Source of the DNA: [Archangium] primigenium
GTDB lineage: Bacteria > Myxococcota > Myxococcia > Myxococcales > Myxococcaceae
Direction of reading: 5' to 3'
DNA: 16,766 nt
Assembly (NCBI GenBank): GCA_052039915.1
Contig: JBQGEZ010000862.1
Coordinates: 1-16,766 of the forward strand
Positions 15,810 through 16,766 of this stretch are shown one piece after another. Every line of letters starts with the position of its first letter. Position 1 is the first letter of the stretch. The notes below the pieces were generated by a model, which saw nothing but the letters and a program-made list of their open reading frames with translations, was not told the origin of the DNA and made no database searches. A program made the translations under genes and the position numbers.

Positions 15810-15815
15810 GAATTC
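15810..15815. other. GAATTC (EcoRI site) exactly at the compositional breakpoint, abutting the TGA stop of the OMP gene
   Basis: Read directly: ...ctcttcTGAGAATTCacgaggactcctttgg... High-GC host-like sequence ends at 15809. A+C-rich roughly 45% GC sequence starts at 15810. Confidence 0.5.
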
Positions 15816-15914
15816 ACGAGGACTCCTTTGGACAAGAAAACAATAGCTTCCAAAAGCCACCCCGTCTTCAGAGCGTTGGACCAAGTCACTGTAATCTCGC
15901 ACCACTTCGAATCC

Positions 15915-16766
15915 ATGAAGGGCACGGAACCTCTCGTCCAGGAGACATCAGAGAGGCTTCGCGAGGTCACCTCATTTCTAAAAAGGTTTCTAGACACTAC
16001 AAAACCGGCATTACTATCCAACAACATCCTAAAAAAGATAAGCATCCGCCTAGAAGACGTCAGCGCCGCAACAAACGCGTTCATGGCAACCCAAGACAAA
16101 AATTACATACAGGCAACAAATGACAGAATAGACGACCTCCTGGAAGCCATACCCAGCACATTCACCAACAACCCCAAGGACGCTCTAGCCAACCTACAAA
16201 ACACAGTGGAGTCTCTCCAAAAAGCATACGGCAACCTCCTCAAAAAAACAAAAGAACAAAACGAAGAAGCGACACACTCCATCGCACAGATCAATCAAAA
16301 CATACACGCAGCCAGACGCGATGCAATATCATTCCACGACTCACTCCTGACCTCAAACACAAAACTACTGGCCGACCTGCAACTTCAGTTCTCCAAAGCA
16401 CAGGAACAACGATTGGTGGAATTCAGCCAGTTAACCAAGGAGCTAAACGACACTCACACGCAAATACTGGGTGAACTCAAGGAATTCAACCAAGCAGCCA
16501 TCGAAGCCGCAAAAAAAGAAGCCGAATCGGTTATAAGCGAAATAAAACAAACGACAGACAACAGACTAAGCAAAACAATAACTAGCGCAGAAAAAACAGC
16601 ATTAGAGATAGCCGAACACAACGAACAGGCCAAAAAACTTCTGGGCATAATAGGAAACACTGCGATAACAAGCGGGTATAGCGCAGTAGCCAATATTGCA
16701 TCGAAAGAACGCCGGACCTGGCAAGCATTCGCAATAACCACGATGCTTGGATTGGCCGCCTTTGCC
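15915..16766 (+). CDS. Partial ORF (at least 284 codons, no stop before the window end) encoding an alpha-helical/coiled-coil protein with a C-terminal hydrophobic segment; composition foreign to the host. Not in the ORF track because there is no in-window stop.
   Basis: By hand translation this frame is open from 15810 to 16766. ATG at 15915 gives MKGTEPLVQETSERLREVTSFLKRFLDTTKPALLSNNILKKISIRLEDVSAATNAFMATQDKNYIQATNDRIDDLLEAIP...AEHNEQAKKLLGIIGNTAITSGYSAVANIASKERRTWQAFAITTMLGLAAFA. An alternative TTG at 15828 has GAGGA 5 nt upstream. About 45% GC with about 45-50% A on the sense strand. Third positions are almost exclusively A or C (ATA, CTA, ACA, CAA, AAA, GAA, GCA, AAC, GAC). The minus-strand mini-ORFs here (16103..16294, 16454..16741) are noise. 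Confidence 0.5.
   Translation, partial: MKGTEPLVQETSERLREVTSFLKRFLDTTKPALLSNNILKKISIRLEDVSAATNAFMATQDKNYIQATNDRIDDLLEAIPSTFTNNPKDALANLQNTVESLQKAYGNLLKKTKEQNEEATHSIAQINQNIHAARRDAISFHDSLLTSNTKLLADLQLQFSKAQEQRLVEFSQLTKELNDTHTQILGELKEFNQAAIEAAKKEAESVISEIKQTTDNRLSKTITSAEKTALEIAEHNEQAKKLLGIIGNTAITSGYSAVANIASKERRTWQAFAITTMLGLAAFA

What the first reader, a model, noticed from the sequence alone, without database searches (positions are those of the whole stretch)
15810..16766. Abrupt switch to A+C-rich, G/T-avoiding sequence with a stop-free partial ORF; junction coincides with an EcoRI site
Composition changes sharply at 15810, from about 70% GC to about 45% GC, with extreme strand asymmetry (A about 45-50%, C about 23%, G and T about 10-15% each). 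One reading frame is open for at least 950 nt with no stop. Its codons end almost exclusively in A or C (ATA Ile, CTA Leu, ACA, CAA, AGA), a usage pattern I associate with vertebrate mitochondrial heavy-strand genes and with no bacterium I know, and it is incompatible with efficient translation in a high-GC host. The first roughly 25 codons are host-like in GC, then the bias sets in. The junction is a GAATTC hexamer fused to the preceding stop codon. Possible explanations:
(a) A very recent horizontal acquisition, for example a mobile-element or phage-derived coiled-coil membrane-anchored protein.
(b) An assembly or cloning chimera or contaminant joined at an EcoRI site.
(c) An engineered or synthetic insert.
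In every case it is the most atypical DNA in the window.
Basis: seen in the sequence. Interest (0 to 1): 0.75.

Follow-up and report, generated by a model that had tools for sequence, protein, structure and literature searches.

The report
Foreign A/C-rich gene at myxobacterial hotspot
The last 957 bases of this contig are a truncated, recently acquired gene for an uncharacterised membrane protein, inserted straight after a host gene in an Archangium-like myxobacterium and written almost entirely in A- or C-ending codons that neither its relatives nor the host use, which suggests an unusual one-strand mutation history that this fragment alone cannot resolve.

Summary
15810-16766 is A 38%, C 28%, G 19%, T 15.5%, against 15/36/34.5/15 upstream. 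One frame is open to the contig end, and GAATTC directly follows the upstream stop codon.

The ORF starts at TTG 15828, preceded by a GAGGA Shine-Dalgarno. It covers the first 313 of about 430 residues of an uncharacterised protein family (368 hits, best E 1e-18, at most 28% identity): a helical bundle, a coiled coil, and probably two transmembrane helices. Family members are solitary genes in variable, mobile or defence-type neighbourhoods.

The window is a whole 16,766-nt NCBI contig. It is 98% identical to [Archangium] primigenium up to base 15810 exactly. Four complete relatives have an empty site there and two carry other cargo, so this is an insertion hotspot.

The codon bias belongs to this copy only. 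Third-position AT skew is +0.67, against -0.005 +/- 0.083 in 72 homologues. CAI against host genes is 0.13.

C-over-T choice is host-like, A-over-G choice is reversed, and G-requiring conserved residues are eroded. My best reading is real horizontal acquisition plus strand-asymmetric, deamination-type mutation pressure. An engineered EcoRI junction or an assembly artefact is less likely but not excluded.

The parts
15120..15809 (+). Host gene bordering the insertion. It encodes a 229-aa signal-peptide protein, likely an outer-membrane beta-barrel, with no Pfam match. It ends in TGA at 15807-15809.
   Evidence: GC3 is 0.96. The identical protein is on Logan contig L001. Orthologues at >=90% identity exist in [Archangium] primigenium and 'Melittangium boletus' CP185340. 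Nucleotide homology to the sister genomes ends at 15810.
15810..15815 (.). Left junction of the foreign segment. The GAATTC (EcoRI) hexamer directly abuts the host stop codon. Sister genomes read TGAGGCCCGTCA here.
   Evidence: The two other EcoRI sites in the segment (16419, 16482) are both in-frame GAA-TTC (Glu-Phe). They are therefore by-products of the preferred codons.
15818..15822 (+). Shine-Dalgarno-like GAGGA, 5 nt upstream of the TTG start.
   Evidence: Read directly from the sequence. No sigma-70-like promoter or terminator lies between the host gene and the ORF.
15828..16766 (+). Partial ORF of 313 codons, cut by the contig end. It encodes the N-terminal ~73% of a ~430-aa uncharacterised helical membrane protein with extreme A/C-ending codon usage.
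   Evidence: phmmer gave 368 hits, best E 1e-18, colinear from residue ~10. In alignment A1, M1, H11 and R43 line up with the family N-terminus.
15828..16157 (+). N-terminal helical-bundle domain, residues 1 to about 110. Codon bias is weaker in its first ~55 codons.
   Evidence: The AF2 model of homologue P0151 has pLDDT of about 70-90 over residues ~10-110, all helical. Bias profile.
16386..16412 (+). Conserved family motif QFSKAQEQR, residues 187-195.
   Evidence: Q185, Q187, F188 and R195 are nearly invariant in A1. Coordinates were checked.
16638..16694 (+). Conserved family motif LLGIIGNTAITSGYSAVAN, residues 271-289. The family consensus is LVGVIGNxGxTSGYQxxAN.
   Evidence: G283 is kept (family G 90%) and A288 is invariant. 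At residue 279 the family's 93% Gly is replaced by Ala.
16719..16766 (+). Conserved Trp298 and the start of the first predicted transmembrane helix (WQAFAITTMLGLAAFA). The contig ends inside it.
   Evidence: Alignments A1 and A3 show homologues continuing with two hydrophobic helices and an ERRNRxLELE C-terminal domain.

Best explanation
Shown:
- 15810-16766 is the 5' three-quarters of a horizontally acquired accessory gene.
- It sits in a strain-variable insertion hotspot of an [Archangium] primigenium-like myxobacterium.
- In sister genomes that hotspot lies between the outer-membrane-protein gene and the convergent 78-aa/rtcA/rtcB genes.
- The gene encodes a very divergent member of an uncharacterised family of about 430 aa. 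The architecture is an N-terminal helical bundle, a long coiled coil, the motifs QFSxAQxxR and GNxGxTSGYQxxAN..W, two hydrophobic helices and an ERRNRxLELE tail.
- Family members occur as solitary genes next to transposases, restriction-modification genes and abortive-infection genes.

Inferred function:
- It is a membrane-inserting, stand-alone accessory or defence-type effector.
- It is co-transcribed from the upstream host gene, with an 18-nt spacer, its own Shine-Dalgarno and no terminator.
- Its translation is throttled, because half of its codons are near-unused in the host.

Inferred cause of the composition:
- Long or repeated strand-asymmetric mutation pressure, G->A and T->C on the coding strand. 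This is equivalent to C and A deamination on the complementary strand.
- Such pressure would arise if that strand is repeatedly single-stranded in the donor element, or is attacked by a deaminase.
- Purifying selection partly held it in check.
- The result is A/C-ending codons, a protein enriched in Thr/Lys/Ile/His/Asn and depleted in Gly/Val/Arg/Trp, and an almost structure-free mRNA.
For: Family membership:
- 368 hits, 58 below 1e-10, colinear from the N-terminus, with conserved motifs kept.

Host and insertion:
- The window is a whole NCBI contig.
- It is 98.4% identical to [Archangium] primigenium over 8473-15810, and the alignment stops at 15810.
- The site is empty in L007, L010, L094 and L095, and L012 shows the ancestral sequence on the left flank.
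- L009 carries an amine oxidase there.
- L011 carries a 2.5-kb low-GC island with 56-nt direct repeats.

Junction:
- It is reproduced on Logan contig L001, which runs 176 nt past it.
- There is no plasmid or phage DNA match.

The bias is specific to this copy:
- 72 homologues have third-position AT skew of -0.005 +/- 0.083; this gene has +0.67.
- Their GC skew is 0.017 +/- 0.074; this gene has -0.37.

Direction of the bias:
- Pyrimidine-ending two-fold codons are C>>T, as in the host. Purine-ending ones are A>>G. ATA 16 vs ATT 1.
- Amino-acid enrichment against the family correlates with codon G content (Spearman rho = -0.63, p = 0.004) and not with T.
- Phe and Tyr are not enriched.

Mutation pressure overriding selection:
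- The query keeps 12/12 highly conserved residues that need no G, but only 7/12 that need G (Fisher p = 0.037).
- Controls keep about 76% of both classes.
- GA dinucleotides are relatively depleted, z = -2.7.

Consequences:
- CAI is 0.13, against 0.61-0.84 for host genes.
- mRNA folding energy is -0.11 kcal/mol/nt, against -0.20 to -0.25 for homologues of 44-49% GC.

Mobile or defence context of the family.
Against: - Only the left junction is visible. No integrase, att repeat or tRNA is seen, and the island's other genes are unknown.
- The junction coincides with both a stop codon and an EcoRI site.
- Nothing more than 28% identical exists among 1.84 billion representative proteins. The word-indexed search found nothing. 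So no donor and no unbiased sister copy supports the mutational story.
- The Logan contig ends at 15985, close to where the strong bias begins. Continuity beyond that point rests on a single assembly.
- G depletion is stronger at third positions than at first positions, so a single unselected burst is excluded and the history must be compound.
- The statistics on conserved residues, GA context and change-point are marginal (p about 0.04-0.09).
- Function is inferred from architecture and neighbours only. There is no Pfam, NCBIfam, PADLOC or PHROG family, and the structure model is poor at pLDDT 58.
Confidence: 0.55

Rival explanations
1. In-situ or at-entry enzymatic hypermutation. A normal mid-GC copy of the gene entered this lineage recently. 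One strand was then heavily deaminated (C->U on the minus strand, read as G->A on the plus strand) by a host or competitor DNA deaminase. The gene may now be decaying.
For: - The insertion is younger than the ~2% divergence from sister genomes with empty sites, which leaves little time for gradual drift in place.
- G-requiring conserved residues are selectively lost.
- GA dinucleotides are depleted and GG is relatively enriched, as expected for a TC-preferring deaminase.
- G->A creates stop codons only from TGG, so an open frame is not evidence of selection.
- The first ~55 codons look like an ordinary mid-GC gene.
- The Logan contig breaks at 15985, which could reflect variant branching in the reads.
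Against: - G loss differs by codon position. Third positions are far more depleted than first positions. That needs selection or several rounds.
- Trp298, Gly283 and Ala288 are all retained.
- T3 is also very low, and ATA occurs at conserved Ile and Leu columns, which G->A alone cannot produce.
- Heterogeneity along the gene is not significant (chi-square p = 0.11).
- No deaminase is seen in the window.
Confidence: 0.15
2. Selection rather than mutation. The A/C-ending, G/U-poor coding sequence is maintained because it keeps the mRNA unstructured. It may also make translation depend on rare tRNAs, holding a potentially toxic membrane effector at a very low or conditional level, as TTA codons do in Streptomyces.
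For: - CAI is 0.13, half of the codons are near-unused in the host, and there are 16 ATA and 3 TTA codons against zero in 4408 host codons.
- mRNA folding energy is about half that of homologues of 44-49% GC.
- Leaders in the L011 island at the same hotspot are also A/C-rich.
- The family occurs in defence-type contexts where leaky expression would be costly.
Against: - None of 72 homologues shows the trait.
- The gene arrived recently, so it cannot have adapted its codons to this host.
- The bias also reshapes the protein and erodes conserved G-requiring residues, which selection on codons would not do.
Confidence: 0.12
3. Assembly artefact. The contig end is chimeric, either at 15810 or near 15985, and joins the Archangium-like chromosome to DNA of another organism or allele in the sample.
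For: - The anomaly lies at a contig end.
- The Logan contig stops at 15985, within about 20 nt of the best change-point in codon bias.
- The partial protein, and anything like it, is absent from the word-indexed search of a 5.8-billion-cluster protein collection, although the contig's other proteins are there.
- Logan contigs for this organism are short, which suggests low coverage.
Against: - A k=31 Logan contig runs unbranched through 15810 for 176 nt.
- The protein is colinear with its family across 15985, from the N-terminal domain through to the TM helix. A join there would need two homologous alleles.
- The Shine-Dalgarno and start codon sit correctly 18 nt after the junction.
- The site is an independently documented insertion hotspot.
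Confidence: 0.1
4. Engineered or cloned junction. A fragment ending exactly at the host gene's stop codon was amplified with an EcoRI-tailed primer and joined to a cargo fragment carrying its own ribosome-binding site, for example as a knock-in between convergent genes.
For: - GAATTC starts on the first base after TGA, and homology to sister genomes ends there.
- My rough estimate, with no tool result behind it, is that a common cloning site coinciding with the junction has a chance of about 1%.
- The spot lies between convergent genes, a typical 'neutral site'.
Against: - The cargo matches no plasmid, vector or phage DNA and no protein above 28% identity.
- It uses a TTG start and a codon usage that no expression design would choose.
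- Two internal EcoRI sites would hinder EcoRI cloning.
- The fragmentary Logan assembly suggests an environmental or low-coverage sample rather than a lab strain.
- Natural cargo occupies the same hotspot in L009 and L011.
Confidence: 0.06

Closest known systems
Strain-variable genomic or defence islands at chromosomal hotspots. The example seen here is the 2.5-kb island in 'Melittangium boletus' CP185340, L011 10750-13224.
   Same: - The chromosomal hotspot is the same, downstream of the same host gene.
- GC is about 20 points below the host.
- The cargo is a set of small accessory genes.
- L011 also has A/C-rich leaders.
   Different: - The L011 island sits 70 nt further downstream and is flanked by 56-nt direct repeats.
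- Its genes have balanced third positions.
- In the window the foreign DNA starts on the base after the stop codon, no repeat is visible, and the right end is missing.
Vertebrate mitochondrial L-strand-sense genes (named from my own knowledge; not tested here).
   Same: - Codons end in A or C and G is strongly avoided.
- The pattern is attributed there to C and A deamination of the complementary strand while it is single-stranded.
- This direction of asymmetry is the one seen here.
   Different: - This is a bacterial and plasmid-borne protein family with a Shine-Dalgarno site, lying in a bacterial chromosome.
- The AT skew is even stronger and the GC skew weaker than I recall for mtDNA.
- No organelle database was searched.
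APOBEC3-type G-to-A hypermutated retroviral or HBV genomes (the enzymes are described in PMC8321922 and PMC7760323).
   Same: - G->A excess on the coding strand only.
- Relative depletion of G in the GA context.
- An open frame can survive, because only TGG yields stop codons.
   Different: - I know of no comparable process acting on bacterial chromosomal or mobile genes.
- Here third positions are hit more than first positions, and key residues are kept, so selection acted.
- T is also depleted.
Rare-codon-gated genes of high-GC bacteria, namely the Streptomyces bldA/TTA regulon (from my own knowledge).
   Same: A gene in a ~70% GC genome depends on codons the host almost never uses (3 TTA, 16 ATA, 10 CTA).
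   Different: In the bldA case one or a few TTA codons sit in an otherwise host-like gene. Here half of all codons are rare and the gene is foreign.
ZorA (Zorya) and LeoBC/LeoA (Eleos) long-helical defence proteins.
   Same: Weak profile matches over the coiled-coil and adjacent hydrophobic region. PADLOC E-values range from 2e-6 to 1e-4.
   Different: - There is no MotA/ExbB channel domain and no dynamin GTPase domain.
- The NCBIfam ZorA score is 21.9 against a cut-off of 190.
- The matches are most simply coiled-coil composition.

Membership tests
Uncharacterised ~430-aa helical two-TM protein family (no Pfam, NCBIfam, PADLOC or PHROG model) | Significant, colinear sequence similarity starting at the N-terminus | tested here: met
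   phmmer gave a best E of 1e-18 and 58 hits below 1e-10, with query residues 10-313 aligned to subject residues 10-309. M1, H11 and R43 align.
Uncharacterised ~430-aa helical two-TM protein family (no Pfam, NCBIfam, PADLOC or PHROG model) | Conserved motifs QFSxAQxxR and GNxGxTSGYQxxAN...W | tested here: met
   QFSKAQEQR lies at 16386-16412, LLGIIGNTAITSGYSAVAN at 16638-16694 and W298 at 16719. Two deviations: G279 is Ala and Q285 is Ser.
Uncharacterised ~430-aa helical two-TM protein family (no Pfam, NCBIfam, PADLOC or PHROG model) | Two hydrophobic helices followed by the ERRNRxLELE C-terminal domain | not testable with these tools
   The contig ends inside the first hydrophobic helix. No continuation was found in any collection.
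Integrated genomic island (site-specific) | Absent from closely related genomes at the same locus | tested here: met
   The site is empty in L010 (98.4% identical), L007, L094 and L095. L009 and L011 carry different cargo.
Integrated genomic island (site-specific) | Flanking direct repeats (att), an integrase, or a tRNA target | not testable with these tools
   Only the left end lies on the contig. No repeat or tRNA-like element was found in 15700-16766. The neighbouring-strain island L011 does have 56-nt repeats.
Cloning vector or synthetic construct | Sequence identity to vector, plasmid or marker DNA beyond the restriction site | tested here: not met
   blastn found no match in 72,556 plasmids or 50,697 phages. 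tblastn found only 22%-identical hypothetical genes on Geobacillus-group plasmids. No dedicated vector database was available.
ZorA (Zorya anti-phage system) | MotA/ExbB-type membrane domain and a score above the family cut-off | tested here: not met
   PADLOC matches cover only the ZorA tail region. The NCBIfam score for a homologue is 21.9 against a cut-off of 190.
Eleos LeoA/LeoBC dynamin-like proteins | Dynamin GTPase domain | tested here: not met
   No GTPase domain appears in Pfam scans of seven full-length homologues. PADLOC hits are confined to helical regions.
Diversity-generating retroelement target or template | Template/variable repeat pair and a reverse transcriptase nearby | tested here: not met
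   No direct repeat of 13 nt or longer was found in 15700-16766. No reverse transcriptase is among the window genes. The bias runs the wrong way, since A is gained rather than lost.
Mitochondrial or organellar gene | Homology to organelle-encoded proteins | tested here: not met
   The protein belongs to a family found in bacterial metagenome contigs and Geobacillus-group plasmids. Only the composition resembles mtDNA. No organelle nucleotide database was searched.

The most novel reading that the evidence does not exclude
The segment is the footprint of strand-specific, deamination-type hypermutation of a mobile gene in a bacterium. It shows G->A with a GA (TC on the opposite strand) preference, plus T->C.

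There are two ways this could arise:
- A host single-strand DNA deaminase mutates incoming DNA, a bacterial counterpart of APOBEC restriction.
- The gene comes from an unsampled class of mobile element whose one strand spends long periods single-stranded, giving mitochondrion-like codon usage.
Probability: 0.2. Interest if true: 0.8.

Novelty: new variant of a known kind. Interest (0 to 1): 0.5.

Why it matters
If the junction and the sequence are real, this gene violates Chargaff's second parity rule at synonymous sites more strongly than any of the 72 relatives and 308 background ORFs I could compare. It does so in one direction only: A over G, and C over T.

Asymmetry of that kind is normally a record of which DNA strand was single-stranded or enzymatically attacked. 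The complete island could therefore show one of two things. It could show how a class of myxobacterial mobile cassettes replicates or transfers. Or it could show that bacteria mutate incoming DNA with deaminases.

The work also defines a widespread, unannotated family of helical membrane proteins found in mobile and defence-type contexts. In addition it locates an insertion hotspot next to the rtcBA operon in Archangium and Melittangium.

If the segment is an artefact or an engineered junction, it is of no biological interest. Read mapping would settle that quickly.

Tried and rejected
Searches that found nothing useful:
- **Word-indexed protein search of the ORF.** No hit.
- **Peptide-pattern scans** of viral and JGI metagenome contigs for close relatives. 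None found.
- **Exact look-ups of the window's YebC.** Nothing found.
- **blastn against plasmids and phages.** No match.
- **Pfam, NCBIfam, PADLOC and PHROG scans.** Only coiled-coil-type sub-threshold hits.
- **PDB profile search.** Only apolipoprotein, ClyA or spike-type helical matches.
- **Rfam, promoter/terminator and repeat scans of the segment.** Nothing.
- **Literature searches** for the run accession, myxobacterial low-GC islands and bacterial G-to-A hypermutation. Nothing relevant.

Analyses that were inconclusive:
- **AF2 model from a 4-sequence alignment.** Too poor (pLDDT 58) for a fold search.
- **First attempt to scan with the full 30-sequence alignment.** It failed because the alignment was too divergent.
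- **Neighbour clustering across 75 homologue loci.** No conserved partner gene.
- **Correlation of local bias with local conservation.** Not significant.

Ideas considered and rejected:
- **A hypermutated orphan pseudogene of a host gene.** Rejected because a real family exists and the ORF aligns with it from its N-terminus.
- **The bias as a family trait.** Rejected.
- **Ordinary AT-rich donor codon usage.** Rejected because T-ending codons and Phe/Tyr are not enriched and ATA outnumbers ATT 16 to 1.
- **A chimera made by ligating natural EcoRI fragments.** Rejected because sister genomes have no EcoRI site there and two internal sites are uncut.
- **A low-complexity Pro/Thr linker,** like the only other region at least as extreme (L077). 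Rejected.
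Full report
**1. What is in the sequence.**

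The window is about 70% GC up to 15809 (A .149, C .359, G .345, T .148). From 15810 to the end it is A .379, C .280, G .186, T .155. T stays at the host level, C falls a little, G is halved and A more than doubles.

The frame starting at 15810 has no stop for 319 codons. No shuffle of the segment had an open frame (0 of 2000), and the analytic probability is 6e-7. The other five frames are full of stops.

Third codon positions are A .40, C .35, G .17, T .085. Two-fold pyrimidine-ending codons prefer C, as the host does:
- GAC 13 vs GAT 1
- CAC 8 vs CAT 0
- AAC 16 vs AAT 4
- TTC 10 vs TTT 3

Purine-ending codons prefer A, the reverse of the host:
- GAA 20 vs GAG 6
- AAA 20 vs AAG 6
- CAA 12 vs CAG 7

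ATA is the main Ile codon (16, against ATC 6 and ATT 1).

Measured against the 12 genes of the same window, the ORF has a CAI of 0.13. Host genes score 0.61-0.84. Half of its codons have relative adaptiveness below 0.1. ATA and TTA are never used in 4408 host codons.

The first ~55 codons are intermediate rather than host-like. GAATTC does directly follow the TGA of the upstream gene.

**2. The ORF is a real gene of a real but unnamed family.**

A GAGGA motif at 15818-15822 lies 5 nt before a TTG at 15828.

An exhaustive phmmer search against 1.84 billion representative proteins gave:
- 368 hits at E <= 1e-3 and 58 at E <= 1e-10, with a best E of 1e-18
- 20-28% identity
- colinear alignments, with query residues 10-313 on subject residues ~10-309 of ~425-440-aa proteins

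In a 30-sequence alignment the TTG-initiated N-terminus lines up with the family's Met. Nearly invariant positions (His11, Arg43, Pro60, Asp102, QFSxAQxxR, Gly283, Ala288, Trp298) are present; the family's Gly at residue 279 is Ala here.

Full-length members continue with two hydrophobic helices and an ERRNRxLELE C-terminal domain. The contig ends in the first of those helices.

No curated family covers these proteins:
- Pfam, NCBIfam, PADLOC and PHROGs give only sub-threshold coiled-coil-type matches to ZorA tails, LeoBC, SMC and tape-measure proteins.
- A PDB profile search gives only helical-repeat proteins.
- An AlphaFold model of a homologue is all-helical, with a confident N-terminal ~110-residue bundle, but is poor overall at pLDDT 58.

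**3. The host and the locus.**

The other genes in the window are chromosomal core genes: DsbA-like, LpxC, RuvB, a major-vault-protein homologue, DksA-like, RuvA/RuvC, YebC and a response regulator.

The window's YebC is in the protein collection from an NCBI contig of exactly 16,766 nt, so the window is a whole contig. Its 90% clusters contain proteins of [Archangium] primigenium and of a genome labelled Melittangium boletus.

At the DNA level the window is 98.4% identical to [A.] primigenium over 8473-15810 and 98.0% identical to CP185340. Both alignments end at 15810, that is, at TGAG|AATTC (alignment).

Downstream of the orthologous gene:
- [A.] primigenium (L010) and three metagenomic relatives (L007, L094, L095) have only 6 nt before the convergent 78-aa gene that ends the rtcB-rtcA operon.
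- A short Logan contig of another strain (L012) also shows the ancestral flank.
- M. boletus CP022163 (L009) has a copper amine oxidase there.
- CP185340 (L011) has a 2.5-kb island of ~48% GC. It encodes a dCTP-deaminase-like protein, a thymidylate-synthase-like protein and a 105-aa protein. It is flanked by 56-nt direct repeats of the 3' end of the 78-aa gene.

This spot is therefore a recurrent insertion site. The segment in the window is a third, unrelated occupant that arrived after the ~2% divergence from genomes with the empty site.

**4. Is the junction real?**

A Logan contig from run SRR32316219 (L001, 1059 nt) matches window 14927-15985 at 100%. It passes through the junction for 176 nt without a branch. 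I cannot tell whether the NCBI contig was built from the same reads.

No plasmid or phage DNA resembles the segment.

The three EcoRI sites in 957 nt exceed the expectation of 0.17 from base composition (p = 7e-4). All three are in-frame GAA-TTC, the preferred Glu and Phe codons. The two internal sites are therefore side-effects of the bias. The one at the junction lies upstream of the start codon but is in the same frame.

An EcoRI site landing exactly on a stop codon is what a cloning primer would produce. I estimate, roughly and without a tool result, a ~1% chance of such a coincidence, and I keep the engineered reading alive at low probability.

Against the engineered reading:
- the cargo matches nothing known
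- it starts with TTG
- it contains two more EcoRI sites
- it uses codons that no design would choose

A caution: the Logan contig stops at 15985. The best single change-point for third-position A versus G lies between the codons at 15963 and 15972, but its significance is weak (permutation p = 0.08). Continuity beyond 15985 therefore rests on one assembly. Even so, the protein is colinear with its family across that point.

**5. The bias belongs to this copy, not to the family or to foreign DNA in general.**

Four homologue loci found through exact look-up have ordinary composition.

Seventy-two homologous genes fetched from JGI metagenomes give:

| Measure at third positions | 72 homologues | This gene |
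|---|---|---|
| AT skew | -0.005 +/- 0.083, range -0.20 to 0.14 | +0.67 |
| GC skew | 0.017 +/- 0.074, range -0.18 to 0.17 | -0.37 |

That is about 8 and 5 standard deviations out.

Among 308 long ORFs in all fetched loci, A+C at third positions is 0.50 +/- 0.049 (maximum 0.73). Here it is 0.76.

In about 660 kb, the only region at least as A+C-rich codes for a Pro/Thr linker, which is a different phenomenon.

Family genes are on average 3.9 GC points below their flanks.

**6. What kind of bias is it?**

An ordinary AT-rich donor is excluded. T-ending codons are rare, and Phe and Tyr are not enriched.

Relative to the family, the protein is:
- enriched in Thr (1.73x), Lys (1.61x), Ile, His and Asn
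- depleted in Trp, Gly, Val and Arg

Enrichment correlates with the G content of codon positions 1 and 2 (Spearman rho = -0.63, p = 0.004) and not with T.

At highly conserved alignment columns, the query keeps 12 of 12 residues whose codons need no G but only 7 of 12 that need G (p = 0.037). At the 60% conservation threshold the counts are 25/32 and 14/26. Other family members keep about 76% of both classes.

Family columns opposite the query's residues fit E->K, A->T and R->Q substitutions:
- AAA-Lys columns are most often Glu.
- ACA-Thr columns are most often Ala.
- CAA-Gln columns are often Arg.

Residual G is relatively rare before A (observed/expected 0.91 against 1.13 +/- 0.08 in the family, z = -2.7) and relatively common before G. 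This is only suggestive.

G depletion is stronger at third positions than at first positions, and key Gly, Trp and Arg residues survive. Selection has therefore acted, and a single unselected burst cannot explain the pattern.

One physical consequence is an mRNA with about half the predicted structure of homologues of 44-49% GC. The value is -0.11 against -0.20 to -0.25 kcal/mol/nt, and -0.42 to -0.48 for host genes.

**7. Function of the family (inferred).**

Across 75 homologue loci no neighbouring gene is conserved. The neighbours that do recur in type are:
- AIPR abortive-infection proteins
- type I restriction-modification HsdM
- a DpnII/MboI-like nuclease domain
- transposases

Family members also sit on Parageobacillus and Geobacillus plasmids, one next to an IS630 transposase. 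There are no phage hits.

I read this as a stand-alone, horizontally mobile membrane protein, possibly a defence or abortive-infection-type effector. This is not shown.

In the window it lies 18 nt after the host gene, with no terminator or promoter-like site between them. It is most likely transcribed by read-through from that gene.

**8. Explanations weighed.**

- **Best (0.55).** Genuine horizontal acquisition at a hotspot. The composition reflects strand-asymmetric, deamination-type pressure (G->A and T->C on the coding strand). The pressure was accumulated mainly before arrival, in a donor element whose complementary strand is often single-stranded or attacked, and was partly checked by selection.
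- **In-place or at-entry enzymatic hypermutation (0.15).** This is the closest rival and shares most of the evidence.
- **Selection for an unstructured, rare-codon mRNA (0.12).** It explains the consequences but not the erosion of conserved residues, nor the uniqueness within the family.
- **Assembly chimera (0.10) and engineered EcoRI junction (0.06).** Both remain possible because only one end of the segment and no reads are available.

**9. Limits.**

- The gene is truncated.
- The right junction and the rest of the island are unknown.
- No sequence above 28% identity exists for comparison.
- Several supporting statistics are marginal.

Read mapping and recovery of the full island would decide between the readings.

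Noticed in passing
window 8501-10774 (- strand): This is a 757-aa homologue of the eukaryotic major vault protein, with Vault repeats and the MVP shoulder domain (E 2e-44). It is conserved at the same position in all Archangium and Melittangium relatives examined.
   Followed up: partly
L011 10750-13224 ('Melittangium boletus' CP185340.1): A 2.5-kb island of ~48% GC sits at the same hotspot. It encodes a dCTP-deaminase-like protein with a C-terminal hydrophobic and coiled-coil tail, a thymidylate-synthase-like protein and a 105-aa protein. It is flanked by 56-nt direct repeats (95% identical) of the 3' end of the 78-aa gene. No integrase is present and there is no PADLOC match. Three of its four non-coding spacers are A/C-rich (A .35-.41) although its genes are not.
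   Followed up: partly
window 8447-8473, compared with L010 3030-3351 and L011 3024-3343: The window lacks about 300 nt that in both 98%-identical sister genomes carry an 83-aa DUF7660 gene next to the vault-protein gene. The adjacent lower-GC stretch (window ~7330-8500, 62-65% GC, two small genes) is replaced by VgrG/RHS genes in L007, L094 and L095. This makes it a second variable spot.
   Followed up: partly
window 15807-15830: The foreign ORF is in the same reading frame as the upstream host gene, separated only by the TGA stop. The in-frame stretch between the stop and the TTG start reads EFTRTP. This is probably chance (1 in 3), but read-through would give a fusion protein.
   Followed up: no
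window 15985 (end of Logan contig L001): The separately built Logan contig stops within about 20 nt of the point where third-position A/(A+G) jumps from 0.44 to 0.75. The cause could be a coverage drop, variant branching or coincidence.
   Followed up: partly
L009 5710-7737 (Melittangium boletus CP022163.1): A copper amine oxidase gene occupies the same intergenic hotspot in this genome.
   Followed up: no
L007, L009, L010, L011, L094, L095 (flank of the hotspot): In all relatives the hotspot borders the RNA-repair operon rtcB-rtcA plus a conserved 78-80-aa gene, with the sigma-54 activator rtcR nearby. The window ends before reaching these genes.
   Followed up: no
window 16239-16300, 16508-16530, 16590-16640: Several A6-A7 runs lie inside the ORF, for example ctcaaaaaaacaaaagaacaaaac and gcaaaaaaagaa. 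They could promote polymerase or ribosome slippage. Not analysed.
   Followed up: no
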